Shown: positions 2,734 through 24,218 of the stretch, piece by piece
How the letters are laid out: each line of letters opens with the position of its first letter
Numbering within the stretch: the first letter of the stretch is position 1
Assembly: GCF_000981785.2 (NCBI RefSeq)
Contig: NZ_CP011304.1
Span: 3,000,001 to 3,032,000 of the forward strand
Source: Microcystis aeruginosa NIES-2549
Lineage (GTDB): Bacteria > Cyanobacteriota > Cyanobacteriia > Cyanobacteriales > Microcystaceae
Length of the DNA stretch: 32,000 nt
Direction: 5' to 3'
Notes under the pieces: model-generated
The model's database searches: none
Seen by the model: the letters and a program-made list of their open reading frames with translations, nothing else
What the model was told of the DNA's origin: nothing
Made by a program: the position numbers and the translations under genes

Positions 2734-2790
2734 AGTTTTAGGTAAAGTAATTAGCAGCGGTTACAATAATTCGGAAACAGCAAGGGATAA

Positions 2791-4341
2791 CTAACTATTA
2801 CTCAAATATTTACCCCGATTCAACCAGTTGGTTTTTGAGGACTTTTGCGGAGATTTTTTGAAGACAAAACTAGGTTTTGCTTCTCCCGATAAGCTGGCAA
2901 CCATCGAGTTAGTGGTGGGTTCAATCCAACGGACTAAATAATTGGGTTGAATACCTAAAAAGACGATTAATACCATTAGGACAAAAGCGGGGATAGTTTC
3001 CGATTTCAGGACTTTGGGATAGTAGGCAAGTTTATTATCCAATTTACCAAAACAGGTGCGATTAAGCAGGATAACAAAGTAAACCGCCGTTAAACCGGAA
3101 GCGATGATACAGAGAACCGTCTGCACGGGAAAACGGGAGAAACTACCCTGAAAAACGATAAATTCCGCCACAAATCCCACTAATCCGGGAATCCCGGCGC
3201 TGGCCATACCGGCGAGAATTAATAGGGCGCTAACCAGGGGTAAACCGCGAATTGGGTTCATTAAACCGTTTAAAACGTCTAAATCTCTAGTTCCGGCTTT
3301 GCGTTCGACGATGCCCACCAGATAGAATAAGAGGGCGAGAATAAGACCGTGGCTAATCATTTGCGCGACGGCACCAAGGACGCTTAAACCCGTGCCGGCG
3401 GCGGCTGCTACCAGTATATAGCCCATGTGACCGATCGAACTGTAGGCCACCATGCGTTTAATGTCTTTTTGGGCAATAGCGCTCAAGGCCCCGTAAATAA
3501 CGCTAATAACGCCGATAATTGCCAGTCCGGGGGCGATTAAAGACCAAGTTTCTGGGAATAATTGCAGACCAAAGCGAACTAAGCCATAAGTACCGAGTTT
3601 AGCGAGGATACCACCTAGTAAAATGGCTGTAGCGGGGGAAGCTTCCGTGTAGGCATCCGGTAGCCAAGTATGGAGAGGTACGAGGGGGATTTTGATGCCA
3701 AATCCCACTAACAGCAGAGTTAAGAGCAGTAATTGGGTTTTTTGGGAGAAATCGGCGGTGGAGAGGGAGGAATAGTCAAAAGTACCACCGTTGAGAAAAC
3801 CTATGCCTAAAAATGCCGCTAGGACTAATAACCCGGAGACAGCAGTGTAGAGAAGAAATTTAATCGAAGCATAGCCACGTTTTTCGCCTCCCCAGATAGC
3901 AATCATCAGATAAAAGGGGATTAATTCTAGTTCATAGAAAACGATGAACAGCAGCAGGTTTTTAGCCATTAATGCCCCAGAAACCCCGGCGTTAATCAGG
4001 AGGATTAGGATGTAATAAAGTCGGGGACGCTCTACTTTTTCTTCGGTACTATAGATAGCTATTCCTGTCAAGAAACAGTTTAAAATAATTAACGGTAAGG
4101 ACAAACCATCGACTCCGAGGTTATAACTTAAACCGATTGGTTTTGCCCATTCGCGGTATTCAGAAAATTGAAAGCCATTACTGGTTAAGTTATATTGGGT
4201 CAGCAGATATAAAGACCACAAGAAGACGGCGGCAACAAAAAAGAGGGTAATTTGACGTAATTTTGCTGGGGCAAATTTATCGGGGAAAAGACCGACGATA
4301 ATTGCTCCAAGTATTGGCAACCAAAGCAGGGTACTGAGCAT
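2791..4341 (-). CDS. ndhD3: NAD(P)H-quinone oxidoreductase subunit 4 paralogue NdhD3
   Basis: Polytopic NuoM/NdhD-type membrane protein located between ndhF3 and cupA. The track ORF starts at a TTG (4392); I prefer the ATG at 4341 (MLSTLLWLPILGA...). Confidence 0.88.
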   Translation of the reverse strand: MLSTLLWLPILGAIIVGLFPDKFAPAKLRQITLFFVAAVFLWSLYLLTQYNLTSNGFQFSEYREWAKPIGLSYNLGVDGLSLPLIILNCFLTGIAIYSTEEKVERPRLYYILILLINAGVSGALMAKNLLLFIVFYELELIPFYLMIAIWGGEKRGYASIKFLLYTAVSGLLVLAAFLGIGFLNGGTFDYSSLSTADFSQKTQLLLLTLLLVGFGIKIPLVPLHTWLPDAYTEASPATAILLGGILAKLGTYGLVRFGLQLFPETWSLIAPGLAIIGVISVIYGALSAIAQKDIKRMVAYSSIGHMGYILVAAAAGTGLSVLGAVAQMISHGLILALLFYLVGIVERKAGTRDLDVLNGLMNPIRGLPLVSALLILAGMASAGIPGLVGFVAEFIVFQGSFSRFPVQTVLCIIASGLTAVYFVILLNRTCFGKLDNKLAYYPKVLKSETIPAFVLMVLIVFLGIQPNYLVRWIEPTTNSMVASLSGEAKPSFVFKKSPQKSSKTNWLNRGKYLSNS

Positions 4342-4419
4342 ATTGGTATCGATCGAATTTATAATGACTGGGATGAGAAAAGGATTAGCCAAACGACACG
4401 ATGACTAATCTGGAATTGA

Positions 4420-5145
4420 CTAAATTAAATTCACTTTGCCGGTATCGAGATCGTAGTAGGCTCCAACAATTTTTAATTGTTTTTTATCTACTAAATCACC
4501 CATGACCGGGGACTTGCCTAATTTCTCTACTTGATAGACAACATTGGATTTAATGGCTCGCTCAAGTTTGTCGGAACCGGGTTGTTTTTCAGACCGATCA
4601 ACTCCCACCTGTAGGCCATCGATTAAACGACCGATTTGTCCGGGAAAACGACCCCCTTCAATGGTGGCTTTTACCGCTCCACAACGAGAATGGCCGAGGA
4701 CAACAATTACCTTAGCTCCTAACACCAACGTGCCGAATTCGAGGCTACCAATTTCTTCGGAAGTGGCTAAATTTCCCGCTACCCGACAAACAAATAGATC
4801 TCCTAATCCTTGATCAAAAACAATTTCTGCCGGCACGCGAGAATCGGCACAGCCCAAAATTGCCGCAAAAGGGGCTTGACTTTCGGCCACTTCTGTGAGT
4901 CGAGCTTGATCGCGGTTAGGACTTTTTTTTCTTCGTTCCCAGAAACGTTGATTGCCTTCCATGAGCATAGTTAAGGCCTGGTCTGGGTTCAATCCTTGAT
5001 TTTGAGCGGTTAGCCATGGCTGGGAATTAACAGCAGTTTGGGCGTTAGTTTTGGACAACTGAGAACCCAAAACAGAGGCGGTTAGACTGGTTCCCAAAAA
5101 ACCACCCCCATAACGAATTAATTGGCGACGAGAGGTATTGAACAT
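4420..5145 (-). CDS. ecaB: Beta-class carbonic anhydrase with an N-terminal twin-arginine signal (EcaB-like), embedded in the NDH-1(3) operon
   Basis: Beta-CA zinc-ligand motifs CADSR (LGCADSRVPAE) and HSRCG (VLGHSRCGAV). The N-terminus MFNTSRRQLIRYGGGFLG.. looks like a Tat signal. The symbol is assigned by analogy only. Confidence 0.8.
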   Translation of the reverse strand: MFNTSRRQLIRYGGGFLGTSLTASVLGSQLSKTNAQTAVNSQPWLTAQNQGLNPDQALTMLMEGNQRFWERRKKSPNRDQARLTEVAESQAPFAAILGCADSRVPAEIVFDQGLGDLFVCRVAGNLATSEEIGSLEFGTLVLGAKVIVVLGHSRCGAVKATIEGGRFPGQIGRLIDGLQVGVDRSEKQPGSDKLERAIKSNVVYQVEKLGKSPVMGDLVDKKQLKIVGAYYDLDTGKVNLI

Positions 5146-8420: not shown

Positions 8421-9152
8421 ATGGTTAGTTATCTTGATATTGACGACGATCTTCTTTTCCCCGATAGTGATGGTCAACCGATGGCAGATAATACCGAACA
8501 ATATGAGTGGATTGTTAAAATTAAGGAGAATTTAGAAATTATCTTTGCTGATGACCCTAGGGTGTTTATTGCTGGAGATTTACTCTGGTATCCTCTGCGT
8601 TCTACTTTGGTTTCACCGGTTGCTCCCGATGTGATGGTAGCTTTTGGCCGTCCCAAAGGACGAAGGGGTTCCTATCGTCAATGGCAGGAGGAAAATATCG
8701 CTCCTCAAGTGGTTTTTGAAATTCTATCACCGAAGAATACAAAAGCAGAAATGAGTCGAAAATTAGAGTTTTATGACACATATAATGTAGAAGAATACTA
8801 TTTATATAATCCCATGCGCTGTCGTTTACAAGGTTGGCAAAGACAGGGAGAAAATTTAAGAGAAATTATCCCCATCAATGACTGGATAAGTCCCCGCTTA
8901 GGTATGCGTTTTATCTGGGATAAATCTAGTTTAGAATTGTATCGTCCCGATGGAGAGAAATTTTTAACAACTGTTGAGTTAGAGTCTCAAATGCGTCAAG
9001 AAAAGAAACGTGCCGATAAAGAACAGAAACGCGCTGATAAAGAACAGAAACGCGCTGATAAAGAAAAAAAACGTGCTGATAAAGAAAAACAACGTGCAGA
9101 CCGACTAGCGGAACGCTTACAGGCGTTAGGATTAAGTTTAGAAGAAGAATAA
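8421..9152 (+). CDS. Uma2-family (DUF820) putative endonuclease with a repetitive charged C-terminal tail
   Basis: The pattern DSDGQPMADNTEQYEWI...FIAGDLLWYP...APDVMVAFGRPKG.RGSY..W.E....PQVVFEILSP.N...E...K...Y...V.EYY.Y.P is typical of cyanobacterial Uma2 proteins. The tail carries (KRADKEQ)n. Confidence 0.85.
   Translation: MVSYLDIDDDLLFPDSDGQPMADNTEQYEWIVKIKENLEIIFADDPRVFIAGDLLWYPLRSTLVSPVAPDVMVAFGRPKGRRGSYRQWQEENIAPQVVFEILSPKNTKAEMSRKLEFYDTYNVEEYYLYNPMRCRLQGWQRQGENLREIIPINDWISPRLGMRFIWDKSSLELYRPDGEKFLTTVELESQMRQEKKRADKEQKRADKEQKRADKEKKRADKEKQRADRLAERLQALGLSLEEE
9006..9110 (+). repeat. In-frame 21-bp tandem repeat: 4 good copies plus 1 degenerate
   Basis: AAACG(T/C)GC(C/T)GATAAAGAA(C/A)A(G/A) units at 9006, 9027, 9048 and 9069, with a degenerate unit from 9090. 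They encode KRADKEQ/KRADKEK. Confidence 0.9.
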
Positions 9153-11760: not shown

Positions 11761-11854
11761 CGAACCTAAAATCCATTTTTAATTTAATTATAACCAACTA
11801 CTTAACAATCAAAAAGAATAAATAAATGAGAAAAGTTGTTTCTTGTTTATATCC

Positions 11855-13186
11855 TTAGGATAGTTGTTGCCGATAAATCTTAATTTGTTCCAAGCGAGGG
11901 CCGACCTTAGAAATGATGGTAAATTCTAAATTTTGGTAATATAATTGTTCTCCCACCTTCGGTATTTTTTGCCAATGATGGAGGACAAAACCAGCTAGGG
12001 TTTGGTATTCATCGGCCAAGGGTAAACTTAAATTTAATGCTTTGTTCACGTCCTCTAAATTCATTTGTGCTTGTACGAGAAAAGTCGATTCATCGAGGAG
12101 TTGATATTTTACTGTTCCTGATTCATCACTAGGGGAAAAAGTTCCCAGAATCTCGCCGATTAAATCTTTTAGGGTTAATAAACCGGCTGTTCTGCCAAAT
12201 TCATCCACAATGATAACCATCTTTAAGGATGATTCCCGCATCACTGTTAGTAATTCATTTAAAGCAGTGGTTTCGGGGAAAAAACGCGCAGGTTTTAACC
12301 AAGGTTTAATCGGGGTTGTTAAATTTAACTGACCTTCGGCAAGGGGTAAAGCTAAATCTTTAAAATCGATCAGACCACGGATATCATCACCGGAATCTCC
12401 TTCCACAGGATAACAAGAATAGCCGCTGTTAACTACTTGGAGCAGTAATTCCTCAAAAGTTGCGGTCGAGGGAATAGCTATTAAACGGTTATGGGGAACC
12501 ATGATTTCTGCGGCAGTGATTTCGCTAAACTGGAAAACATTATTTAAAATTTTCCTTTCCGCTGCTTCTAATCCCGTTAATTCCCCTTCCATGCTGATAA
12601 TTAATTGTAATTCCTCGGAAGTTACCCGACTAGAACGCTGTAGATCCACTTCGGGGATACGGGTTAAAACCAATAAAAAACGAGTTGATTGATTTAGAAT
12701 ACCGATAAAAGGCTTAAAAATCCTGGAAATAACCCCAATAGGTGCGGCTAATAATCGCGCCATCGGTTCGGCATAAATTAAAGCTAGGGATTTGGGATAA
12801 AGTTCCCCAAAAACTATCTGGAGATAGGCCACGATTAAAAAAGCTAGACAAAGAGAGAAGCCATGGGAGAGAAGATTTTGCCAGTTTAAAGAAAAGGGTA
12901 AAAAACTTAGTAATTTCCTCACAAAAACGGTCATGGTACTCTCCCCGATCCAACCTAAAGCTAAACTAGAAAGGGTGATACCTAATTGGGTAGTGGAAAG
13001 TAAGCGATCGAGACTTCTTTGTAGAGATTGGACCGTCTGCGCTGGCACATCTCCCGCAGCCACTAGCTGACTGATGCGGGTACGACGGACAGACACAAGC
13101 GAAAATTCGGCCGCTACGAAAAAAGCATTGAGGACGATTAGTAAAAAGACTAAAATTAAACGAGTCAATAAATCCTGATTATCCAT
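11855..13186 (-). CDS. CNNM/DUF21-CBS-CorC_HlyC family transporter (hemolysin-like, TlyC/CorC type)
   Basis: 443 aa. N-terminal DUF21 TM segments (LNAFFVAAEFSLVSVRRTRI), a central CBS pair and a C-terminal CorC/HlyC domain. Confidence 0.88.
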   Translation of the reverse strand: MDNQDLLTRLILVFLLIVLNAFFVAAEFSLVSVRRTRISQLVAAGDVPAQTVQSLQRSLDRLLSTTQLGITLSSLALGWIGESTMTVFVRKLLSFLPFSLNWQNLLSHGFSLCLAFLIVAYLQIVFGELYPKSLALIYAEPMARLLAAPIGVISRIFKPFIGILNQSTRFLLVLTRIPEVDLQRSSRVTSEELQLIISMEGELTGLEAAERKILNNVFQFSEITAAEIMVPHNRLIAIPSTATFEELLLQVVNSGYSCYPVEGDSGDDIRGLIDFKDLALPLAEGQLNLTTPIKPWLKPARFFPETTALNELLTVMRESSLKMVIIVDEFGRTAGLLTLKDLIGEILGTFSPSDESGTVKYQLLDESTFLVQAQMNLEDVNKALNLSLPLADEYQTLAGFVLHHWQKIPKVGEQLYYQNLEFTIISKVGPRLEQIKIYRQQLS

Positions 13187-13218
13187 AGCGAAAAGGCAAA
13201 ATTCGCCTTTTTTAAAGC

Positions 13219-13512
13219 CTATCCTTTGGTTTCGTCCTTTGATTGCGGTTGGTTTTTCTGTTGTTGCATATAAACTCTCACTCTTTTCAGCACCTCTTCT
13301 TCCTTCACGGGGATAAAAGTTTGATTGCGACCATAACTGGTGCGATCGTTGGTAAACTTTTTAGCGGGGTTGATATCCGGTTGACTGACCCCCTTGAGGG
13401 AGGCGATTCCTAATTGATAGGCTACCCAACCGCTACCGAAGCCGGCGGCTAACATGGCTACCATCAAAAGGAGTCCTAGCTGCAAGGAGGTGCTGATTGA
13501 AAATTTTTTCAT
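13219..13512 (-). CDS. Small hypothetical membrane protein
   Basis: 97-aa ORF with an ATG start and one N-terminal TM segment, 32 nt upstream of the transporter gene. No family recognised. Confidence 0.5.
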   Translation of the reverse strand: MKKFSISTSLQLGLLLMVAMLAAGFGSGWVAYQLGIASLKGVSQPDINPAKKFTNDRTSYGRNQTFIPVKEEEVLKRVRVYMQQQKNQPQSKDETKG

Positions 13513-13554
13513 CTTGGTAGGTCCGAATTTTCACGTTCAGAGTGATTACTGATC

Positions 13555-13560
13555 TATAAT
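13555..13560 (+). promoter_or_regulatory. Possible -10 box (TATAAT) for the split tRNA gene
   Basis: Perfect TATAAT 17 nt upstream of the tRNA 5' end; no convincing -35 element. Confidence 0.3.
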
Positions 13561-14122
13561 GAGTTAATAGTATAACCCAGGGTTGGCCGAGCGGTTGAGG
13601 CAACGAACTCAGTGCGACGTACACAACCCCAGTCATGAGGGTGTAAATCCCCCCACCTTATCGGAAGGTGACTCCACAGCCCACTTCCTATCTCTGACAA
13701 AGATAGGGGGGGAAGCAAGGGCAAAAAAAGCTAGGAAAGACAAGTCCAGTCGGAACTAGAAAGTGGGAGTCTATATGGTTAGCGAAAGCGAACTCACGCC
13801 CGAACTACGGAAAAGTGCAGCAGTGAAAAGGACTGATACACTGCGACCAAAAGGTCAATACGGCCAGTGGTATAACCTATGTTGAGTAATAGGAATCCGA
13901 TTACCCAGACCGTACCGTAGAAAGTGAGAACCTAAGTGGACAAACAATGACAGGGGAATAAGGTACGGGAACCTCCAGACTCTCAACCTACTACCGTAGG
14001 AGATTAAGTCAAAATCTGAGAATGGGGGGAAGGAACTTATCTCAAGCCAAAGCTCTACCGTAATAGTAGAGATATGCCGAAAGATAAGTGGCTACATCAG
14101 AGTAAATCAACAGGTTGAACTT

Positions 14123-15853
14123 ATGTCTAAGGCTCAAGAAGCAGAATGGATACAAGTGGATTGGACAAACATCCAATACACCGTATCAAAGTTACAATCC
14201 AAAATTTACGAAGCATCCCTAAAGGGTGACAAAAGTTCGGTTGTTAAATACCAGAAAATCCTAATTAACTCTTTCAAAGCTAAATTACTAGCCGTAAGAA
14301 GAGTGACACAGGATAACAAAGGTAAGAGAACGGCAGGAATAGACGGCAAGAAAATCCTCAATTACGAGGAAAGAATCAAACTAGCTGAAAACCTGAAACT
14401 AGATGGTAAGGCAACGCCACTGAGGAGAGTAGAAATACCCAAATCAAACGGAAAAACCAGAAATCTAGGAATCCCCACCATAGAGGATAGAGCCAAGCAA
14501 GCATTAGCGAAAATGGCACTAGAACCCGAATGGGAAGCTAAATTCGAGCCTAACAGCTACGGATTCAGACCAGGTAGAGGCTGTCATGATGCTATAGATG
14601 CCATCGAACTCCAAGTCCGTCGAAAAACCAAGTACGTCTTGGATGCGGATATCAGTGGCTGTTTTGATAACATCAAACACTCAGCGATAATCGAGAAATG
14701 CAATACTTTTCCAGTCATGGAAACCCAAATCAGAGCTTGGCTAAAAAGCGGAGTAATGGTGGGGGATGTATTTCATCAAACCGAAAAAGGCACACCACAG
14801 GGGGGAGTAATATCTCCGTTACTGGCAAACATAGCTTTACACGGTTTAGAAACTCACATTTCAACCAAATTCCCTTGTAGAAAGACCAGAATAGGTCAGA
14901 CTAACGGAAAAATGGAGGAAATAGGGGAAGCTAGATTAATCAGATACGCTGATGACTTTGTTGTACTTCATGCCAGAGAAGAAACAATCAAAGCAGTCAA
15001 GATTGAGGTAGAGAACTGGCTAAAGGATTTGGGATTAAGCCTAAATCCTGAAAAAACCAGAATAGGTCATACTAAAGAGGAATACAACGGTGAAAAACCT
15101 GGACTTGACTTTTTGGGATTTAATATCAGAACCCATGATATAGGGAAATATAAATCCAATAAGAAAGGAAATGGGGAACCACTAATGATGTTAACTAAAG
15201 TTAAACCATCGGAGAAATCGGTGGAACAATTTATCAACAACATCAAAGAAATCCTCAATAGTGGACACGATAAAGCCCCGATAATAATGATTAACCAATT
15301 AAGCTGGTTAATCAGAGGATGGGCAAACTACTTCAAAATAGGAAGCCATTCATGGGAAACCTTTGGGCGACTAGAATTTCACAGGCTAAACAAGCTATAC
15401 CTAAACTGGGGAAGGAAAAGATTCGCCAAAGAAGGAATAGGGTACATTAGTAAAAAAATATTCCACCAAACATCCAAATCCAAATACACTTTCGGATGGA
15501 AGATTGGAGACAAAAAATATACAGTACCTACCCTATACGATTTCCCATACACCCAACATATCAAGGTAAAAGGAAATAAAAGCCCTTACGACGGAGATTG
15601 GGTATATTGGACAAAAAGAATGGCAGACCATCCGCAAGCCCCAAAAGATATAACTTACGGGATAAAACAGCAGCAAGGTAAATGCTACATCTGTGGACAA
15701 AACCTAACTGTAGAAGATTCCCTAGAGATACATCATATAGACGGAAACAGGGAAAACAACAAAAAAACGAACAAGGCAATAGTGCATAACTACTGTCACA
15801 AGTCACACCATAGAATGGCGGTATCTCTCCAAGAGATATTGGATGTAGCTTGA
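14123..15853 (+). CDS. Group II intron-encoded protein: reverse transcriptase / maturase (X) / HNH endonuclease
   Basis: RT motifs IPKSNGKTRNLGIPTIEDR, YGFRPGRGCHDA, LDADISGCFDNI, GTPQGGVISPLLANI and YADDFVV. X domain RGWANYFK. C-terminal HNH region CYICG...HHIDGNRENN...HNYCHKSHH. Confidence 0.95.
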   Translation: MSKAQEAEWIQVDWTNIQYTVSKLQSKIYEASLKGDKSSVVKYQKILINSFKAKLLAVRRVTQDNKGKRTAGIDGKKILNYEERIKLAENLKLDGKATPLRRVEIPKSNGKTRNLGIPTIEDRAKQALAKMALEPEWEAKFEPNSYGFRPGRGCHDAIDAIELQVRRKTKYVLDADISGCFDNIKHSAIIEKCNTFPVMETQIRAWLKSGVMVGDVFHQTEKGTPQGGVISPLLANIALHGLETHISTKFPCRKTRIGQTNGKMEEIGEARLIRYADDFVVLHAREETIKAVKIEVENWLKDLGLSLNPEKTRIGHTKEEYNGEKPGLDFLGFNIRTHDIGKYKSNKKGNGEPLMMLTKVKPSEKSVEQFINNIKEILNSGHDKAPIIMINQLSWLIRGWANYFKIGSHSWETFGRLEFHRLNKLYLNWGRKRFAKEGIGYISKKIFHQTSKSKYTFGWKIGDKKYTVPTLYDFPYTQHIKVKGNKSPYDGDWVYWTKRMADHPQAPKDITYGIKQQQGKCYICGQNLTVEDSLEIHHIDGNRENNKKTNKAIVHNYCHKSHHRMAVSLQEILDVA

Positions 15854-15926
15854 AGCCGTGTGCGGTGAAAGTCGCACGCACGGTTTTGCAGCCGAGCTAA
15901 TCAAGTAATTGGTTAGTTTAGGTAAC
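15853..15926 (+). other. Group II intron domains V and VI (catalytic hairpin and branch-point helix)
   Basis: AAGCCGTGTGCGGT-GAAA-GTCGCACGCACGGTTT, followed by CCGAGCTAATCAA-GTAA-TTGGTTAGTTT-A-GG and TAAC. Confidence 0.8.
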
Positions 15927-16001
15927 TAATTCGTGCTAGGCAGGTTCAACTCCTGCACCCTGGATAGTTTTGATGGCTTCAGGCGATCAGCTTTGACTGC
16001 A

Positions 16002-16151
16002 CTAGAGTAGTCGGCGGTGACAGATTACCTGACCATTTTCGGCTGCTTTGAGAACAGAAATACAATCATTAATTTTATCCTTTTCATTTTTCAGGAAAGC
16101 TAAAAAAACACAAGAATCCCAGTAGTGTAGCTTTTTTGTTGGACGAATCAC
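16002..16151 (-). pseudogene. Truncated/frameshifted PIN-domain (VapC-like) toxin gene fragment
   Basis: A GTG start overlaps the upstream stop (GTGA). Translation MIRPTKKLHYWDSCVFLAFLKNEKDKINDCISVLKAAENGQVI.. matches PIN N-termini (first acidic residue, xxDSxVFxAxL). The frame breaks after about 44 aa and the remainder is missing before the tRNA. Confidence 0.45.
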
Positions 16152-17018
16152 TTACTTTCTCCCAAAATTCCGATCATTTCCTCAATGGTAGGTAAATCTT
16201 TTTCCTGAGGAAAAAGATCAATTGACTCAACTTTAATCCCGATTTTTTCCCCATCTTCTCTAGAGGTAACTATCCCCGATACAGAGACTCTTTTTTCTAG
16301 ATATTCTTTGATATTATCAAGTAAATTTGGTTCAAAGTAACATTTAACACTTTTATTAGTCAATAAATTGTAAACTCTAAAAATAGGTTGACGACTTACA
16401 TCAATAGCTTTAAGTAGTCGTGCAAAATTAATTTCCTAGTGAAGATAGGCAAGAGGCAAGGGGCAAGAGGCAAGAGGTGGTTAGATATGTGTAATTAATT
16501 TTGCTTAGGTACTTAAGCACACCTTCTACAGTACCAAAACTTTGATATTTTCCCCCGATAATTTCATCAACATTAGCAATCAAAGCTTGATTCAAGTCGA
16601 TACACCTCGAATCAAAGCCCAATTGCACCATAAACTCATCTCTTTTTTTCAATATTGCTAATGATCGCGCACTTTCTAAAGCTCGATCAGAAAAATACTT
16701 AGGGCGAATCGGATGTTCTAAAATTGTTACTATTCCCCTTTCTACAGTCTTAATAACTTCAGAAATTTGACTAGGTGTGATCTGATCTTGAGGCATTCCT
16801 TCTAAAGTAAGATGAATGCTGCCACTATGAATTTGAGAGATTCTCCAATTTATCAGGAGGCGATTTTTGTTAGCAAGGGTTTTATCTACTTCATGGAGTA
16901 GTATTGCTAATTGTTCTTGAGCCTTGATAAATTTATCAAAAGACAACAGTGAGCCTTCTATATCTAGTGTTAGGCTCTTGATTGTTTCCTTCGATATAGG
17001 GCTTTCCCCTTTAGTCAT
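16148..17018 (-). pseudogene. Unknown-function gene (255 aa when repaired) disrupted by a MITE insertion
   Basis: Track ORFs 16428-17018 and 16148-16363 are its two halves. The tail of the first ORF (..YLSKINYTYLTTSCLLPLASCLSSLGN*) is encoded by the MITE. Removing 103 bp restores the frame ..FGTVEGVLKAIDVSRQPIFRVYNLLTNKSVKCYF... Confidence 0.7.
16410..16516. mobile_element. 107-bp MITE with imperfect 24-bp terminal inverted repeats and a TTAA at both ends
   Basis: The left end is TTAAGTAGTCGTGCAAAATTAATT. The reverse complement of the right end is TTAAGTACCTAAGCAAAATTAATT. TTAA lies at 16410-16413 and 16513-16516. A second family member sits at 1180-1256. Confidence 0.75.
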
Positions 17019-17317: not shown

Positions 17318-18211
17318 ATGTCCAAAATCGCTAAAAAACTTAGTAATTCTCCTTTTCGTTATCCTGGCGGTAAATTTTATGCCCGTAAGCTAATCTTAGC
17401 TTGTCTTCCTAGTCACCATAAGTATTGTGAACCTTTTGCGGGGGGAGCATCTATATTCTTTGCTAAGGAAAGTGTAGCAGAGAATATTCTCAATGACAAA
17501 GATGAGGAATTAATGAACTGTTATCGACATATCAAAGATCATCTTGATAGTCTAATTGAATTATTAAAAGATCTAAACGCTACCAAAGAATTACACAATT
17601 ATTATAAAAATGAATTTCAACCAGCCAATGACCTAGAAAGAGCCATGCGTTGGTATTATCTAAATAGAACTTCCTACTCAGGAATTATGAAACTTGAAAA
17701 TTGTTATTGGGGCTATGGTGATAAGTATTCTATGCGTCCTGAAAACTGGCCTTCTCACCTAAAAACCACTTCGGAAAAACTGCAAAATGTCAATTTATCT
17801 TGTTTAGATTTTGAAGATTTAATCAATCAATTACCCGATGATTACTTTTTATTTGTCGATCCTCCTTACTTTCAAGCAGATCAAAATAAATTCTATTCCT
17901 GCTTCTTCAGTCTAGAAGATCATGAAAGGTTATGTAAGACGTTGAAAAAACATCAACATCGATTTAAATTTCTTTTGACTTATGATAATTGCTCCGAAAT
18001 TAGAGAAATGTATGATTGGTGTATTTCTTTACAAGATAATGAATGGAATTACACTATTAATCGAACTGATGATCAAAAAAATGGTTTAAAATTAGAACAT
18101 GGTTATCAGAGTGAAAGACGCAAGGGCAAGGAGGTATTTATTGCTAATTATGATCTTGAGAAACCTGCAAGATTTACACCTCTACAATTAAGTTTATTCG
18201 ATGTATCTTGA
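17318..18211 (+). CDS. Dam-class (D12, alpha-group) N6-adenine DNA methyltransferase
   Basis: FRYPGGK, EPFAGGASIFF (motif I), NDKDEELMNCY, YYLNRTSYSG and FVDPPY (motif IV). Confidence 0.9.
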   Translation: MSKIAKKLSNSPFRYPGGKFYARKLILACLPSHHKYCEPFAGGASIFFAKESVAENILNDKDEELMNCYRHIKDHLDSLIELLKDLNATKELHNYYKNEFQPANDLERAMRWYYLNRTSYSGIMKLENCYWGYGDKYSMRPENWPSHLKTTSEKLQNVNLSCLDFEDLINQLPDDYFLFVDPPYFQADQNKFYSCFFSLEDHERLCKTLKKHQHRFKFLLTYDNCSEIREMYDWCISLQDNEWNYTINRTDDQKNGLKLEHGYQSERRKGKEVFIANYDLEKPARFTPLQLSLFDVS

Positions 18212-18220
18212 TTCCTAATT

Positions 18221-19051
18221 TTAATCAAGTAAATCCTCTATTTTTTCGATAGGTAGCCATGGTTGTAGAGGTTCAGCCGTATTAACATCAAAGAAAATTT
18301 TGGGATAATTAGGGATGAAATTACAGTTTTGATCCTGGCATTTCTGGCGAGAACAATTGATATTATTGGTTTGATTTGCTGTTAAATCTTTACTTCTGGC
18401 AACGTACATTTTTAAAAGGGCTTCTTCTTGATTATTAATATTAATTTTGCTTAAAAATATTTGCTCTTTTGGTGTGGGATTCCAAACAAATAGTCCTGTT
18501 TCTAAATTGGTCTGAAAAAAAGCATTGGCAAGAGATGTAATCACTAAATCAAAATCTGTTTCAATATATTGATCTTTGTGAATATTGAGGCTTGTTGAAG
18601 GTATTCCTATCAATTTAGACCTTTGTTCTGCCGCTTTGTCTCCTAAGGTTCTTGATCTCATACATTTGACTTCAATAAAAGGTCTGATACCTCCCTGAAG
18701 ACGGAAACTACCTTTTTTGGCTAACTTACATTCAGCAGAGTATTTTTTGGCGTTTTTTTGATTGATAATAGCTACATCTATATCGTGAGAACCAGCTTGA
18801 GGATTTAAGCGAGGATTAGTAACTAAATAATTATTCGCGAGTATTTTTGACAGTTTATCTTGTACAGTGAACTCAAAAAACTTGCCACGAATCATAGGAA
18901 TAACTTTTGGATCATTGAGAACTTCTGTAATATATTTGATATTCAAACTATAACTCTTACAAAAACTTTCTATTTTTTCAAACCATTCCCATTCAAGCTC
19001 GTTATCATGCAAAAACTGCTCAAGCAATTTAATCAAATCTTCTGACATCAT
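18221..19051 (-). CDS. Putative type II restriction endonuclease (PD-(D/E)xK-like)
   Basis: 276 aa. It converges on M (9 bp between the stops) and overlaps the C-gene stop by 23 nt. A candidate catalytic core is GKFFEF...SHDIDVAI...SAECKLAKK. No family recognised. Confidence 0.7.
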   Translation of the reverse strand: MMSEDLIKLLEQFLHDNELEWEWFEKIESFCKSYSLNIKYITEVLNDPKVIPMIRGKFFEFTVQDKLSKILANNYLVTNPRLNPQAGSHDIDVAIINQKNAKKYSAECKLAKKGSFRLQGGIRPFIEVKCMRSRTLGDKAAEQRSKLIGIPSTSLNIHKDQYIETDFDLVITSLANAFFQTNLETGLFVWNPTPKEQIFLSKININNQEEALLKMYVARSKDLTANQTNNINCSRQKCQDQNCNFIPNYPKIFFDVNTAEPLQPWLPIEKIEDLLD

Positions 19052-19289
19052 CAGTATTTACATCGGAATTTATAGACATAGTGTTAAAAAGCTCCGAAAG
19101 ACTTATGTTTAATGCTCTACATAAAGAAATCAAGCATAGTAAAGAAGGATTCCTTTTACCACGTTCAAGAAGACTGATGTAAGTTCTATCCAAATTGGCC
19201 GCTTCGGCCAACCTTTCTTGGGATAAACCCTTTTGAATACGAGCATTATGTAAACATCTGCCAAATTGAGCTAAATTGTCCTTTGCCAT
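19029..19289 (-). CDS. Controller (C) protein, XRE-type HTH regulator of the R-M system
   Basis: MAKDNLAQFGRCLHNARIQKGLSQERLAEAANLDRTYISLLERGKRNPSLLCLISLCRAL. About 86 aa from the ATG at 19289. The track's GTG start at 19340 lies inside the C-box. Confidence 0.8.
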   Translation of the reverse strand: MAKDNLAQFGRCLHNARIQKGLSQERLAEAANLDRTYISLLERGKRNPSLLCLISLCRALNISLSELFNTMSINSDVNTDDVRRFD

Positions 19290-19312
19290 GCTTCGATTAA
19301 ACTGCCTGACGT

Positions 19313-19338
19313 GACCCCTAGTCCACTGACTGACAGTC
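19313..19338 (-). promoter_or_regulatory. C-box operator (two GACT-N3-(A/G)GTC palindromes separated by AGTG)
   Basis: The minus strand reads GACTGTCAGTC-AGTG-GACTAGGGGTC, 23 nt upstream of the C-gene ATG. This is the same architecture as the C.PvuII/C.AhdI-type operators. Confidence 0.7.
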
Positions 19339-19351
19339 ACAATAGAAAAAC

Positions 19352-21491: not shown

Positions 21492-22742
21492 TCAAGCATA
21501 TTTTCTAAAAGCTAAGGTGACGTTATGGCCACCAAATCCAAAGGAGTTGGAAAGGGCAGCGTTAACTATCTGCTGACGACTTTCGTAGGGGACGTAATCG
21601 AGATCGCAATCGGGGTCAGGATTGTCCAGGTTGAGAGTCGGGGGAATCTGGTCATTAGCGATCGCCATCACCGTGGCCACGGCTTCAATGCCGCCAGAAC
21701 CGCCTAAAAGGTGGCCTGTCATCGATTTGGTGGAACTGACAGGGATTTTGTAGGCCGATTCTCCTAAAGCTTTTTTAATCGCCTTGGTTTCCGTGGGATC
21801 ATTGGCTCCCGTACTGGTCCCGTGGGCGTTGATGTAGCTAATTTCCGCCGGAGTCAAACCGGCATCTTTGATCGCTAATTCGATCGCTCTGGTGGCCCCA
21901 CGACCATCGGGAACCGGTGCCGTCATGTGATAGGCATCGCAAGTCAGACCATAACCGATCATTTCGGCGTAAATACGCGCCCCACGGGCCAAGGCCGTTT
22001 CTAATTCCTCTATAATCAAAATTCCTGCCCCTTCCCCCATGACAAAACCATCCCGATCCTTGTCGAAGGGACGACTGGCCCGGGTGGGGTCATCGTTGCG
22101 GGTGGACAGGGCCTTAGCGGAGGCAAAACCAGCCAATCCTAGGGGGGTAACGGCGGCTTCCGTCCCACCGCAGATCATCCCTTTGGCTAAACCCCTTTGT
22201 ACTAGACGGAAAGCATCGCCGATGGCATTGGAACCGGCAGCGCAAGCGGTCACGGTGCAGTTACTCGGTCCTTTGGCCCCCGTGTGAATAGCGGTTAAAC
22301 CGGCGGCCATATTGGCAATCATCATCGGGATCATGAAGGGACTACACCGGCTCGGTCCTTTTGTCAAGTAAATTTCCTGTTGATCCTCAAGCACTTTTAA
22401 GCCACCCACGCCCGTACCAATTAGTACACCTATATCATCGGCATTGAGAGCGTCGATCACTAATCGAGAATCTTGCAGTGCTTGCAAACTGGCGGCGACG
22501 GCAAATTGAGCGAAACGGTCCATGCGTTTTGCCTCTTTGCGATCCACATAGTCATGGGGGTCAAAACCCCGCACTTCCCCAGCAATGCGACAAGCGTGAC
22601 GGGAGGCATCAAAGTGGCTGATTAAACCAATGCCACTTTTGCCGTTGATTAAGCCTGTCCAATAGTCTGCTAGATTATTGCCGAGGGGAGTGATCGCACC
22701 CATCCCCGTGATGACAACCCTTTTTAATGGCAATTCTGTCAT
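21492..22742 (-). CDS. fabF: 3-oxoacyl-ACP synthase II
   Basis: 416 aa. Active-site Cys context TACAAGSNAIG, plus HGTSTxxND and GHLLGGSGG motifs; immediately downstream of acpP. Confidence 0.95.
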   Translation of the reverse strand: MTELPLKRVVITGMGAITPLGNNLADYWTGLINGKSGIGLISHFDASRHACRIAGEVRGFDPHDYVDRKEAKRMDRFAQFAVAASLQALQDSRLVIDALNADDIGVLIGTGVGGLKVLEDQQEIYLTKGPSRCSPFMIPMMIANMAAGLTAIHTGAKGPSNCTVTACAAGSNAIGDAFRLVQRGLAKGMICGGTEAAVTPLGLAGFASAKALSTRNDDPTRASRPFDKDRDGFVMGEGAGILIIEELETALARGARIYAEMIGYGLTCDAYHMTAPVPDGRGATRAIELAIKDAGLTPAEISYINAHGTSTGANDPTETKAIKKALGESAYKIPVSSTKSMTGHLLGGSGGIEAVATVMAIANDQIPPTLNLDNPDPDCDLDYVPYESRQQIVNAALSNSFGFGGHNVTLAFRKYA

Positions 22743-22811
22743 GTTTGTTCAAAAATAAGGGCAGATTTTGCCCCAGATATTTAATTCTAATTGTCAATTT
22801 TCCCGCAATAA

Positions 22812-23063
22812 CTAGGCGGTTGCTCCTACTTTCTCGCTAATATAATCGACAGCTTTGCCTACAGTGTCAATTTGTTCGGCTGCGTCGTCGGGAATTTCAA
22901 TATCAAATTCTTCCTCTAAAGCCATCACTAACTCGACCACATCAAGGGAATCAGCTTTCAGATCATTAGCAAAGCTTGCTTCGGGGGTAACTGTACCCAG
23001 ATCCTCTACTTCTAATTGTTCCACAACAATTTTTTTAACTCGATCGAAAATTTCTGTACTCAT
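22812..23063 (-). CDS. acpP: Acyl carrier protein
   Basis: Contains the phosphopantetheine site [21 protein letters not shown] prefer the ATG at 23063 ([13 protein letters not shown]) over the track's TTG at 23072. Confidence 0.93.
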
Positions 23064-23239
23064 GGATGTCAATTTTTATCCGCTGGTTTACCGGACTCTA
23101 GCCTCTAGGGTCTGGGGAAATGGGGCGGTGTTACCATTTCCGACAATAAATTTCGGTTAGCTTTTTCACTGACCATTTTTCATCTTACTGGAAGTTGTTC
23201 CCCTCTTGATGAAGTTTTTTCGCGATCATCAGAAGAGAA

Positions 23240-23326
23240 GGGTGTGGGGTGTGGGGTGTGGGGTGTAGGGTGTGGGGTGTAGGGTGTAGGGTGTGGGGTG
23301 TAGGGTGTAGGGTGTGGGGTGTGGGG
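23240..23326. repeat. Heptamer tandem array GGGTGT(G/A), about 12 copies (STRR-like; G-quadruplex-prone)
   Basis: Read directly. Runs of GGG/GGGG are spaced by TGT/TGTA on the plus strand. Confidence 0.9.
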
Positions 23327-23344
23327 AGAATAAATAAAAATAAT

Positions 23345-23393
23345 CTCCTGTCTCCTGACTCCTGACTCCTGATTCCTGACTCCTGCCTCCTGA
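23345..23393. repeat. Heptamer tandem array (C/T)TCCTG(A/T/C), 7 copies
   Basis: CTCCTGT CTCCTGA CTCCTGA CTCCTGA TTCCTGA CTCCTGC CTCCTGA. Confidence 0.9.
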
Positions 23394-23498
23394 ATAAAAA
23401 GCCAAAATATAACGGATAACTCCGAAATCCAGATAATAATCATGGCTGACCATTACCCCAATTCTAGAATTATCCGTTTTTTTTGGTTTTCTTGACTA

Positions 23499-24218
23499 CT
23501 ATTCGGCGGTAGCCAATCCAGTTTCGGTGCTGCCAGTGCTGCGACGACGGGTGAGAGTATTAAAGAGCATAATTCCGATCGCCTTGATTAGATTGCCTTC
23601 CAACTCTTGGAACATTTTCATGTTCATGCCAAAAGCGGCGTTAGCTTCGGTGACAATGCGATCGGCCATGGCTTGATCCACTGGTAACTCGTCGAGGGTT
23701 TGACGATAGTGGTTTTTATAGGCTTTTTCGTCGGAAATATCTTTGAAATCATAGAAAGCCGTGCCACCAGTTTCCAGATTCATCGCTTTTTCGGCGATTT
23801 TTTTCAAGATTTGCCCCCCGGACAGATCGCCGAGATAACGGGTATAGGAATGAGCGACTAATAATTCGGGTTCTGTTGTGGCGATTTCCCGAATCCGGTT
23901 AACGTAGGCCTGACCTGCGGGAGATAAAGCGATCTCGTTGCGCCAATTGGGACCGTAATAAAAATATAAATCCTGTTCCAGCGTATTTTTACGATTGAGT
24001 TCAGGAAAACAGATTTTAGAAACGACGGGATGACTAGGAAGTTTTTCCATCTCCTCCTCCATGGCCGAATAGACGAAGTAGAGGTTAGCCACCAGTTTGC
24101 GATAGGAAGTTTTTTCTACCACGCCTTTGAGAAAACACTTGACAAAACCGACGTTTTCTGCCATGGTGTGGGATTTTTTCGTGCCTTCCCGCAGTTGAGT
24201 TGATAAATTAACGCTCAT
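23499..24218 (-). CDS. ho1: Heme oxygenase 1
   Basis: 239 aa. LREGTKKSHTMAENVGFVKCFLKGVV....Y..LVANLYFVYSAMEEE is the canonical HO signature. Confidence 0.92.
   Translation of the reverse strand: MSVNLSTQLREGTKKSHTMAENVGFVKCFLKGVVEKTSYRKLVANLYFVYSAMEEEMEKLPSHPVVSKICFPELNRKNTLEQDLYFYYGPNWRNEIALSPAGQAYVNRIREIATTEPELLVAHSYTRYLGDLSGGQILKKIAEKAMNLETGGTAFYDFKDISDEKAYKNHYRQTLDELPVDQAMADRIVTEANAAFGMNMKMFQELEGNLIKAIGIMLFNTLTRRRSTGSTETGLATAE

What the first reader, a model, noticed from the sequence alone, without database searches (positions are those of the whole stretch)
13577..15964. Complete mobile group II intron sitting inside the anticodon (between nt 35 and 36) of a non-canonical tRNA(CAU)
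Seen: 13577-13611 and 15927-15964 join into a 73-nt cloverleaf. It has a perfect 7-bp acceptor stem, a 5-bp anticodon stem, a T arm with a TTCAACT loop, and anticodon loop CUCA|UAA (anticodon CAU). The 2,315-bp interruption starts with GTGCGAC. It has a textbook domain V (AGC triad, GAAA loop) and a domain VI with a bulged A 7 nt from the ..AAC 3' end. It also carries an intact 576-aa RT/X/HNH ORF. Established knowledge: the classically described cyanobacterial tRNA introns (tRNA-Leu UAA, tRNA-fMet) are group I. Group II introns in tRNA genes are a plastid hallmark (trnK-matK, trnV, trnG, trnI, trnA), and bacterial group II introns mostly avoid housekeeping genes. Inference: function of this tRNA depends on splicing, and the locus would be a bacterial analogue of the plastid situation. 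The tRNA itself is odd. It has C1-G72 and a 3-bp D stem with a type-II-like GCCGAGCGGTTGAGGC arm, yet only a 5-nt variable loop. It lacks initiator features, so it could be an accessory Met or Ile2 tRNA.
Basis: partly seen in the sequence, partly recalled or inferred. Interest (0 to 1): 0.78.

Follow-up and report, generated by a model that had tools for sequence, protein, structure and literature searches.

The report
Group II intron splitting tRNA-Ile(CAU) anticodon
A complete self-splicing retro-element (group II intron) splits the anticodon of a Microcystis cyanobacterium's normal tRNA for the AUA isoleucine codon; a group II intron in this gene was already known (TeI4h), but this one belongs to a separate, apparently undescribed intron family that always uses this one position.

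Summary
Window 13612-15926 is a complete group II intron: GUGCGAC 5' end, Rfam domain V/VI hit, bulged A at -7, and a 576-aa RT/maturase/HNH-like ORF. It lies between nt 35 and 36 of a 73-nt tRNA(CAU). An intron-less Microcystis allele at the same locus gives the exact empty site.

- The tRNA is not non-canonical. It is the resident tRNA-Ile(CAU) (Ile2, lysidine type) found almost unchanged across cyanobacteria, beside the same CorC/CNNM gene.
- A bacterial group II intron in this gene is not unprecedented. The well-studied T. elongatus intron TeI4h sits in the same gene. I fetched that locus: TeI4h is in the D loop and belongs to a different intron subclass.

Beyond the finding:
- The window's intron belongs to a distinct clade of about 40 protein clusters (58-95% identity). 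Every member I checked sits at exactly this anticodon position, in Microcystis, Crocosphaera, Cylindrospermopsis and four further metagenome-derived lineages.
- The two nearest outgroup proteins checked are not in tRNAs.
- 19 of 40 clade members have lost the RT catalytic aspartates, against 0 of 80 outgroup members, yet their ORFs stay intact (dN/dS about 0.1). This suggests repeated reduction to a splicing-only maturase.

Splicing itself is inferred, not shown. Verdict: a new member of a known kind, of moderate interest.

The parts
13555..13560 (+). Possible -10 box (TATAAT), ending 16 nt upstream of the tRNA; would drive the tRNA-intron precursor
   Evidence: Read directly from the sequence. 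The consensus promoter scan did not call it, so this is weak.
13577..13611 (+). tRNA-Ile(CAU) exon 1 (nt 1-35: acceptor 5' strand, D arm, anticodon stem 5' strand, C32 U33 C34 A35)
   Evidence: ARAGORN with introns allowed. Identical to the intron-less Microcystis allele in L019.
13607..13611 (+). IBS1 (ACUCA), the last 5 nt of exon 1
   Evidence: Complementary to the EBS1 loop. Invariant in all 8 intron-bearing alleles.
13612..15926 (+). Group II intron, 2315 nt
   Evidence: Exact empty site in L019; GUGCGAC 5' end; RF00029 match ending at 15926.
13876..13893 (+). Domain I hairpin carrying EBS1 (stem 13876-13880 / 13889-13893; loop GUUGAGUA; EBS1 UGAGU at 13883-13887)
   Evidence: Across 7 aligned introns the loop is largely conserved and the stem covaries: CCUAU/AUAGG, CUCAU/AUGAG, CUAGG/CCUAG, CCCAU/GUGGG, CCAAGG/CCUUGG.
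14123..15853 (+). Intron-encoded protein, 576 aa: RT (YADD intact), X/maturase, D and an HNH-like En domain
   Evidence: Pfam RVT_N, RVT_1, GIIM; TIGR04416 327 bits; best solved relative 6ME0_C, the TeI4h protein, E=1e-80; YADD and HH motifs present.
15853..15888 (+). Domain V (AGC triad at 15854-15856, GAAA loop)
   Evidence: RF00029 alignment; minimum-free-energy fold conserved in 8 lineages.
15891..15923 (+). Domain VI, with the bulged branch-point A at 15920 (7 nt from the 3' splice site)
   Evidence: Fold with the bulged A in the same place in all 8 lineages; the stem covaries.
15927..15964 (+). tRNA-Ile(CAU) exon 2 (U36 to discriminator A73; no encoded CCA)
   Evidence: ARAGORN; contiguous with exon 1 in L019.

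Best explanation
The window comes from a Microcystis chromosome. Its resident, conserved gene for tRNA-Ile(CAU) is split between A35 and U36 by an intact group II intron of the chloroplast-like (CL) protein class. tRNA-Ile(CAU) is the tRNA whose C34 is converted to lysidine so that it reads AUA.

Shown here:
- the intron's boundaries, its ribozyme hallmarks and its ORF;
- that the host gene is the universal cyanobacterial tRNA-Ile(CAU) at its ancestral locus;
- that the intron is present in some Microcystis strains and precisely absent in others;
- that it belongs to an intron family found only at this one position.

Inferred mechanism:
1. The tRNA promoter transcribes exon 1, the intron and exon 2 as one precursor.
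2. The intron protein is translated and binds its own RNA as a maturase.
3. The ribozyme splices by branching at A15920 and ligates A35 to U36.
4. The tRNA is then end-processed, receives CCA, is lysidinylated by TilS and is charged with isoleucine.
5. The excised lariat-protein particle can reverse-splice into intron-less alleles at CTCA|TAAT. It uses EBS1 (UGAGU) pairing with IBS1 (ACUCA); the HNH-like domain and the RT then complete retrohoming.

Because the target is a nearly invariant tRNA sequence, the same homing site exists in virtually every cyanobacterium. In many sister lineages the RT catalytic site has decayed while the ORF is kept, which suggests the intron becomes a fixed element that only splices.
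For: Intron anatomy.

Empty site at the orthologous Microcystis locus.

Identity of the tRNA:
- 116 of 120 loci are intron-less, near-identical copies across cyanobacteria (two are plant-plastid trnI-CAU contaminants).
- The window tRNA matches their consensus at 70 of 73 positions.
- A3-U70 is a published Ile(CAU) discriminator.
- The T. elongatus gene with the same acceptor and anticodon stems is described as the single-copy, putatively essential tRNA-Ile(CAU).
- A plastid tRNA(CAU) with a closely similar D arm and T loop sits next to ycf2; that this position marks plastid trnI-CAU is from my own knowledge.
- CorC/CNNM synteny holds in 81 of 120 loci, and in intron-bearing L076, L133, L138 and L142.

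Site-specific family:
- IEP homologues fall into a 58-95% clade, then drop to 49% or less.
- Window, L033, L076, L130, L131, L133, L135, L138 and L142 all read CTCA|GTRCGAC...AAC|TAATT.
- The outgroup proteins P0043 and P0053 are not in tRNAs.

Intact function:
- In 8 intron-bearing alleles 100% of the cloverleaf pairs form, and 9 of the 12 pairs that bridge the intron show compensatory changes.
- Domains V and VI are conserved.
- IEP dN/dS is 0.10-0.15, including the pairs that involve the RT-dead L133 and L135.
- The window copy has YADD and HH intact.
Against: - There is no RNA evidence for ligated exons, and no test that the intron self-splices or moves.
- I could not scan the whole Microcystis genome, so a second, uninterrupted tRNA-Ile(CAU) copy is not excluded.
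- EBS2/IBS2 and EBS3 could not be identified.
- Domains I-IV match no Rfam D1-D4 model even at E<=1, so the ribozyme subclass is unassigned.
- The HNH domain is below the Pfam threshold.
- The compensatory changes between the exon halves may pre-date insertion, because a mobile intron can enter alleles that had already diverged.
- dS values exceed 1 and are near saturation, so the dN/dS figures are rough.
Confidence: 0.82

Rival explanations
1. The interrupted gene is dead. The intron does not splice, or splices too poorly, and AUA decoding is supplied by another tRNA-Ile(CAU) copy elsewhere in the genome.
For: No RNA data. The whole genome could not be searched. Default gene finders see no tRNA here. 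The insertion may be recent in Microcystis, since it is polymorphic between strains, so intact exons alone do not prove selection.
Against: - The interrupted gene occupies the ancestral CorC-linked locus.
- The gene is reported as single-copy in T. elongatus.
- All 8 full-length intron-bearing alleles compared, from lineages whose IEPs are only 51-80% identical and whose dS exceeds 1, keep perfect cloverleaves.
- RT-dead lineages keep full-length ORFs under purifying selection, which makes sense only if maturase-assisted splicing is needed.
Confidence: 0.07
2. The tRNA is an elongator tRNA-Met (as ARAGORN labels it), or an accessory or odd tRNA, rather than tRNA-Ile2.
For: ARAGORN names every CAU tRNA as Met. 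Silva et al. note that separating Ile from Met is hardest in cyanobacteria.
Against: - A3-U70 excludes Met and fMet by the published rule.
- There are no initiator features: C1-G72 is paired and there is no GGG/CCC in the anticodon stem.
- The same gene in T. elongatus is identified as tRNA-Ile(CAU).
- The D arm and T loop match plastid trnI-CAU.
- It is universal and syntenic, not accessory.
Confidence: 0.04
3. The intron has been co-opted as a regulator. Splicing efficiency (dependent on Mg2+, temperature or maturase level) gates the supply of tRNA-Ile2 and so the translation of AUA-containing genes.
For: An essential tRNA depends on a ribozyme. The intron family has been retained for a long time, with RT-dead maturase-only forms. 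Organellar introns are thought to be used this way (PMC4424553).
Against: - Nothing here tests regulation.
- The intron is absent from most cyanobacteria (116 of the 120 scanned loci are intron-less) and from other Microcystis strains, so it is dispensable.
- The CorC (Mg2+ transporter family) neighbour is there with or without the intron.
Confidence: 0.07

Closest known systems
TeI4h (T.el4h), the group IIB1 intron of Thermosynechococcus elongatus BP-1 (Mohr et al. 2010, PMC2882425; cryo-EM structure 6ME0)
   Same: - A group II intron with an RT/X/D/En protein, inside the same universal cyanobacterial tRNA-Ile(CAU) gene (exons CCAGGGTTGGCCGAGCG... and ...ACCCTGGA).
- That gene is described as single-copy and putatively essential, so splicing must restore the tRNA.
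- Its protein is the best solved-structure match of the window's IEP (E=1e-80).
- The natural copy also has a mutated RT motif, YAGD.
   Different: - TeI4h is in the D loop, after nt 17 (CCGAGCG|TTGCGAC), not in the anticodon.
- It starts with U rather than G.
- It matches Rfam group-II-D1D4-7 at 127 bits, whereas the window intron matches no D1-D4 model.
- The protein match is distant (E=1e-80), well below the 47-49% identity of the window IEP's nearest cyanobacterial outgroup.
- Among the named relatives of TeI4h at 60-66% identity, most are proteobacterial; most of its hits are unnamed. The window's relatives are cyanobacterial.
- This looks like a separate colonisation of the same gene.
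The florideophyte red-algal plastid trnMe group II intron with an RT/maturase ORF (Janouskovec et al. 2013, PMC3607583)
   Same: A group II intron with a GTGYG 5' end, domains V and VI and an RT/maturase ORF, in the anticodon loop of a CAU-anticodon tRNA. Its protein is said to fall within the cyanobacterial/plastid radiation.
   Different: It is reported in elongator tRNA-Met, after the third anticodon base (36/37), in a plastid. Here the host is tRNA-Ile(CAU), the site is 35/36, and the genome is that of a free-living cyanobacterium. I could not obtain a red-algal sequence, so homology was not tested.
The land-plant plastid trnK intron with MatK (and the other plastid tRNA group II introns)
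   Same: An essential tRNA is interrupted in the anticodon loop by a group II intron whose ORF survives mainly as a maturase (PMC4424553). The RT-dead sister lineages here (YAHD, YAND, YADN and others) resemble that state.
   Different: MatK belongs to a IIA intron, has lost RT motifs 0-4 and serves several introns. The window's IEP has all its domains and an intact YADD, and the intron is still polymorphic, hence probably mobile.
The cyanobacterial group I introns in tRNA-Leu(UAA) and tRNA-fMet
   Different: A different ribozyme class (group I) with no reverse transcriptase. Where they move, they do so at the DNA level by homing endonuclease.

Membership tests
Group II intron (self-splicing ribozyme and retroelement) | Conserved 5' end GUGYG | tested here: met
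   GUGCGAC at 13612; the same in 7 of 8 lineages, GUACGAC in L138.
Group II intron (self-splicing ribozyme and retroelement) | Domain V with the catalytic AGC triad and a GNRA loop, followed by domain VI with a bulged branch-point A 7-8 nt from the 3' end | tested here: met
   RF00029 at 48.8 bits (gathering 40), 15851-15926; the fold has its bulged A at 15920 and is conserved in 8 lineages.
Group II intron (self-splicing ribozyme and retroelement) | Domains I-IV with the class-typical architecture | tested here: inconclusive
   A consensus fold of 7 introns gives a plausible domain I with covarying helices. No Rfam D1-D4 model matches, even at E<=1.
Group II intron (self-splicing ribozyme and retroelement) | EBS1-IBS1 pairing with the end of the 5' exon | tested here: met
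   UGAGU (13883-13887) in a hairpin loop pairs with ACUCA (13607-13611). The loop is largely conserved and the stem covaries.
Group II intron (self-splicing ribozyme and retroelement) | EBS2-IBS2 (and EBS3-IBS3) pairing, expected for IIA and IIB introns | tested here: inconclusive
   A complementarity search of the first 440 nt of each intron against exon -6 to -18 found no site at a shared alignment position. For comparison, the EBS2 of TeI4h could also not be read from its structure.
Group II intron (self-splicing ribozyme and retroelement) | ORF in domain IV encoding RT plus the X/maturase domain | tested here: met
   RVT_N, RVT_1, GIIM; TIGR04416 at 327 bits, cut-off 300; YADD present.
Group II intron (self-splicing ribozyme and retroelement) | Splicing and retrohoming activity | not testable with these tools
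   Only indirect evidence: a precise presence/absence polymorphism and intact exons in all lineages.
tRNA-Ile(CAU) (tRNA-Ile2, lysidine type) | Cloverleaf tRNA with a CAU anticodon | tested here: met
   ARAGORN on the joined exons; the intron-less allele scores 54 bits on Rfam tRNA.
tRNA-Ile(CAU) (tRNA-Ile2, lysidine type) | Not an initiator (no C1xA72 mismatch, no A11-U24, no three G-C pairs at 29-31/39-41) | tested here: met
   C1-G72 is paired, the D stem is GCC/GGC, and the anticodon stem is ACGAA/UUCGU. Criteria from PMC1635315.
tRNA-Ile(CAU) (tRNA-Ile2, lysidine type) | Pair 3-70 is not C-G (A3/U70 or G3/C70 indicates Ile rather than Met or fMet) | tested here: met
   A3-U70 in the window; G3-C70 in the variant alleles L076, L133, L138 and L142 and U3-A70 in L131. 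Rule from Silva et al. 2006.
tRNA-Ile(CAU) (tRNA-Ile2, lysidine type) | Orthology with a gene already identified as tRNA-Ile(CAU) | tested here: met
   Same acceptor and anticodon stems as the T. elongatus gene that hosts TeI4h. The D arm and T loop match the plastid tRNA(CAU) next to ycf2.
tRNA-Ile(CAU) (tRNA-Ile2, lysidine type) | C34 modified to lysidine by TilS; charged with Ile; reads AUA | not testable with these tools
   Needs mass spectrometry or tRNA-seq.
TeI4h / EcI5-like IIB1 introns | Same insertion site as TeI4h | tested here: not met
   TeI4h lies after nt 17 in the D loop; the window intron lies after nt 35.
TeI4h / EcI5-like IIB1 introns | IIB1-type domains I-IV (Rfam group-II-D1D4-7) | tested here: not met
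   L182 scores 127 bits; the window has no match at E<=1.
TeI4h / EcI5-like IIB1 introns | Close IEP relationship | tested here: not met
   Only a distant match (E=1e-80). The two proteins have different nearest neighbours.
Chloroplast-like (CL) IEP class | IEP groups with CL-class reference proteins in a phylogeny | not tested
   Suggested only by the best solved relative being TeI4h (a CL protein per PMC2882425) and by the cyanobacterial neighbours. No reference-set phylogeny was run.

The most novel reading that the evidence does not exclude
This is one copy of a previously undescribed, cyanobacteria-wide family of group II introns dedicated to a single phosphodiester bond (A35|U36) in the anticodon of the essential tRNA-Ile(CAU). 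About half of the family's lineages have independently lost RT catalysis, and some have lost the HNH histidines, yet they keep a full-length ORF under purifying selection. These would be bacterial introns caught in the transition from mobile retroelement to fixed, maturase-dependent, organelle-style intron. That would make them a free-living model for how trnK/MatK-like arrangements arise, and possibly kin of the red-algal plastid trnMe intron.
Probability: 0.45. Interest if true: 0.65.

Novelty: new member of a known kind. Interest (0 to 1): 0.5.

Why it matters
1. Annotation. Standard tRNA finders miss the gene. Genomes that carry this intron (Microcystis, Crocosphaera and Cylindrospermopsis strains) will therefore look as if they lack the tRNA for AUA.

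2. Biology. The 73-nt tRNA-Ile(CAU) gene has now been colonised by two unrelated group II introns, TeI4h in the D loop and this family in the anticodon. This supports the idea that ultra-conserved tRNA genes are safe, universally available homing sites.

3. Evolution. RT active-site loss is strongly enriched in this family (19 of 40 against 0 of 80) while the ORF is retained. That gives a tractable bacterial system for studying how mobile introns turn into splicing-only elements, as happened in organelles.

4. Practical. The window's copy has YADD and the HNH motif intact and comes from a mesophile. It could be tested as a mesophilic counterpart to the TeI4h and TeI3c targetrons.

Tried and rejected
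- Default ARAGORN on the window found nothing. The low-threshold run added a 'tRNA-Gly with a 2180-nt intron' at 21839-24111, which I treat as spurious.
- EBS2/IBS2: the complementarity search of domain I against exon -6 to -18 found no position shared by the 7 aligned introns. A GGCCAG/UUGGCC pairing seen by eye in the window was rejected because it is not conserved and lies too far upstream. Comparison with the outgroup intron (L144/L145) confirmed the same 8-nt EBS1 loop design but did not reveal EBS2.
- Rfam D1-D4 models gave no match for the window or the outgroups, so the subclass (IIB1, IIB2 or other) is left open.
- Phage-borne spread: a viral-contig scan for the exon-intron junction gave 36 hits, all chance matches inside unrelated sequence. 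L131 has a Phage_fiber_2 gene nearby, but its context stays unresolved.
- The metagenome scan for the junction, restricted to the G27 exon variant to avoid Microcystis redundancy, returned only one contig (L130).
- The promoter/terminator scan gave no more hits than shuffled sequence.
- I looked for other CAU tRNAs in the fetched loci, to classify by elimination; none were present.
- Literature searches for a described intron at this site found only TeI4h and the red-algal trnMe case. The library lacks most subscription journals and the Zimmerly intron database, so an earlier listing cannot be excluded.
Full report
**1. Observation**

The sequence is as described. Default ARAGORN finds no tRNA in the 32-kb window. 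With introns allowed, it calls one tRNA(cat) at 13577-15964 with a 2315-nt intron at position 36. The joined exons fold into a clean 73-nt cloverleaf.

- Rfam's group II domain V/VI model matches 15851-15926 at 48.8 bits (gathering score 40) and ends exactly at the proposed 3' splice site.
- The intron begins GUGCGAC. Domain VI folds with a bulged A at 15920, 7 nt from the end.
- The 576-aa ORF has RVT_N, RVT_1 and GIIM domains and passes NCBIfam's group II RT/maturase model (327 bits, cut-off 300).
- Its HNH match is below the Pfam threshold, but the CxxC...HH...CH motif is there.

**2. Source and empty site**

The exact IEP occurs on contigs of two NCBI assemblies (GCA_009811815.1 and GCA_009811855.1) and on several metagenome or SRA contigs. 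Where the contigs extend far enough, the neighbours are the same; the four shortest hold only the intron.

In Microcystis aeruginosa LEGE 91341 (L019), window 11823-13611 and 15927-16386 align to directly adjoining bases at 96.5% and 93.5% identity. So the window is from Microcystis, 13612-15926 is a discrete insertion, and the intron is polymorphic among strains. The intron-less allele scores 54 bits on Rfam tRNA.

**3. What the tRNA is**

It is not.

- A degenerate D-arm-to-anticodon pattern was scanned over one genome per GTDB species.
- 116 of them carry an intron-less tRNA. Two of these are plant-plastid trnI-CAU contaminants; the cyanobacterial copies are nearly the same, and the window tRNA matches their consensus at 70 of 73 positions.
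- 81 of the 120 loci also hold a CorC/CNNM homologue next to the tRNA, as in the window. This is therefore the resident gene at an ancestral locus.
- It has no initiator features.
- Its A3-U70 pair is a published discriminator for tRNA-Ile(CAU) against Met and fMet (Silva et al. 2006).
- Two plant-plastid contaminant contigs from the same scan carry a tRNA(CAU) with a closely similar D arm and T loop, lying head-to-head with ycf2. From my own knowledge, that is the position of plastid trnI-CAU.
- Mohr et al. 2010 identify the T. elongatus gene with the same stems as the single-copy, putatively essential tRNA-Ile(CAU).

**4. The intron family**

Homologues of the IEP form a distinct clade of about 40 clusters (at 90% identity) that are 58-95% identical to it. 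Identity then drops abruptly to 49% or less for ordinary cyanobacterial HNH-bearing IEPs.

Every clade member I could place sits at the same bond, CTCA|GTRCGAC...AAC|TAATT, in a tRNA(CAU):

| Locus | Source |
|---|---|
| window | Microcystis |
| L033 | Synechococcales MAG |
| L076, L130 | Oscillatoriales MAG and a metagenome contig |
| L131 | P0006 |
| L133/L134 | Cylindrospermopsis raciborskii |
| L135-L137 | Crocosphaera |
| L138-L141 | P0025 |
| L142 | P0035 |

- Two outgroup proteins are not in tRNAs: P0043 (49% identity) and P0053 (47%, two copies in Dactylococcopsis).
- In the species-representative scan, 2 of the 118 tRNA(CAU) genes of this type carried the intron.
- IEPs of the eight lineages are 51-80% identical, and synonymous divergence exceeds 1. 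The association with this site is therefore old.

**5. Evidence that the split gene works**

- In the eight intron-bearing alleles all 160 cloverleaf pair cells form. Nine of the 12 pairs that bridge the 2.3-kb intron show double-sided compensatory changes. Some of this may pre-date insertion.
- Domains V and VI, with the bulged A at -7, are conserved with covariation.
- The EBS1 loop (UGAGU in six of the seven aligned introns, UGAGA in Crocosphaera L135) sits on a covarying stem and pairs with the invariant exon end ACUCA.
- IEP dN/dS is 0.10-0.15.

**6. An unexpected pattern**

I aligned the window IEP with the 120 best homologues. The catalytic aspartates of the RT motif YxDD are lost in 19 of 40 clade representatives, in 11 different ways (YAHD, YAND, YADN, YADK, YGDN and others). 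None of the 80 nearest outgroup proteins has lost them (Fisher p = 2e-11). Six clade members also have YY in place of the HNH histidines.

These ORFs are still full length and constrained, for example in Cylindrospermopsis and Crocosphaera. Their ribozyme cores are intact. The simplest reading is repeated decay of mobility with the maturase retained, because the host gene is needed.

The window's own copy keeps YADD and HH. Together with the strain polymorphism, this suggests it is still mobile.

**7. What is already known**

The claim that tRNA group II introns are a plastid speciality needs correcting. TeI4h of T. elongatus is the basis of mobility studies and of the 6ME0 cryo-EM structure. 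[quoted passage not shown]

I recovered the TeI4h locus. It lies in the D loop (CCAGGGTTGGCCGAGCG|TTGCGAC...) of the same tRNA. It matches Rfam group-II-D1D4-7, whereas the window intron matches no D1-D4 model. Its protein is only a distant match to the window's (E=1e-80). So the same small gene has been colonised twice, by different group II lineages at different sites.

The florideophyte plastid trnMe intron is another analogue. It sits after the third anticodon base and carries an RT/maturase ORF. I could not test homology with it.

Full-text searches found no description of the anticodon-site family. The library is incomplete, so this is not proof of absence.

**8. Mechanism (inferred)**

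1. The precursor is transcribed from the tRNA promoter.
2. The maturase assists splicing, with branching at A15920 and ligation of A35 to U36.
3. The tRNA is end-processed and receives CCA, which is not encoded in the gene.
4. TilS lysidinylates C34.
5. The lariat-protein particle retrohomes into empty CTCA|TAAT sites through EBS1-IBS1 pairing, the HNH-like domain and the RT.

**9. Unresolved**

- There is no RNA evidence.
- The gene's copy number in the Microcystis genome is unchecked.
- EBS2 and EBS3 are not found, and the ribozyme subclass is unassigned.
- The host and context of L131 are unclear.
- It is not known whether the divergent tRNA scaffold seen with the intron in Cylindrospermopsis and L131 (GCGCCTT... 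and GCTCCTT...) is native or arrived with the intron.

**10. Verdict**

This is a new member, and apparently a new site-specific family, of a known kind. Interest is moderate. Most of it comes from the family-level pattern rather than from the single locus.

Noticed in passing
Related loci and proteins: L133/L134 (Cylindrospermopsis), L135 (Crocosphaera), L033, L076; P0001-P0040: 19 of 40 IEP cluster representatives in the tRNA-Ile intron clade have lost one or both catalytic Asp of the RT motif YxDD, in 11 different variants. None of the 80 nearest outgroup proteins has. Six clade members also have HH changed to YY in the HNH motif. Their ORFs stay full length, with dN/dS about 0.1.
   Followed up: partly
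L182 (T. elongatus BP-1, BA000039.2), about 2370-4828: The well-known intron TeI4h interrupts the D loop (after nt 17) of the same universal tRNA-Ile(CAU). The paper names the gene; the searchable text of the paper did not state the position within the tRNA (its figures are not held). I derived the position from the locus.
   Followed up: yes
Window 17318-19340: A type II restriction-modification cassette lies just downstream of the tRNA: Dam-like MTase 17318-18211 (+), REase 18221-19051 (-) and control protein 19029-19340 (-). Sister strains have other genes at this place: a 912-aa plus a 146-aa protein in L001/L003, and a UPF0150 protein in L005. In Crocosphaera, HicA/HicB follows the tRNA. 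The 3' flank of this tRNA looks like a hot spot for accessory genes.
   Followed up: partly
Window 11855-13186 (-), and 81 of 120 cyanobacterial loci: A CorC/CNNM-family gene (putative Mg2+ transporter) is the conserved, divergently oriented neighbour of tRNA-Ile(CAU) across cyanobacteria, with or without the intron.
   Followed up: partly
L133/L134 and L131: Here the intron sits in a tRNA(CAU) with a different scaffold (GCGCCTTTGGCCGATTGGGGAGGC... and GCTCCTTTGGCCGATTGGAGGAGGC...; G3-C70 in L133 but U3-A70 in L131, with C4-G69 and C5-G68 in both). In Cylindrospermopsis it is nevertheless at the CorC-linked locus. Whether this scaffold is native or arrived with the intron is unknown.
   Followed up: no
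L035 219-293 (- strand): Rfam family RF04354 'Plastid-ycf2 5UTR RNA' matches at 105 bits, exactly antisense to the plastid trnI-CAU gene (tRNA model 63 bits on the + strand at the same coordinates). That family appears to be essentially the reverse complement of a tRNA.
   Followed up: no
L035 (Pilimelia anulata JCM 3090 assembly, 2075-bp contig) and L099: These contigs in bacterial assemblies carry a plant-plastid type trnI-CAU. L035 also has an N-terminal ycf2-like ORF. They are probably plastid DNA contamination.
   Followed up: partly
Window 21839-24111 (- strand): At its low-score setting ARAGORN calls a 'tRNA-Gly(gcc) with a 2180-nt intron' spanning the fabF/acpP region. It is almost certainly spurious.
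   Followed up: no
Window 8421-9152 (+): A Uma2-family putative endonuclease ORF whose length differs between the two sister assemblies (243 aa against 236 aa).
   Followed up: no
L144 and L145 (Dactylococcopsis salina CP003944.1): Two identical copies of an outgroup group II intron (IEP P0053) at sites ending ...GTTCATTTG| and ...GTTCAGTTG|. One is flanked on both sides by cadherin-domain genes. The EBS1 hairpin has the same 8-nt loop design (GUCAACUA) as in the window's intron.
   Followed up: partly
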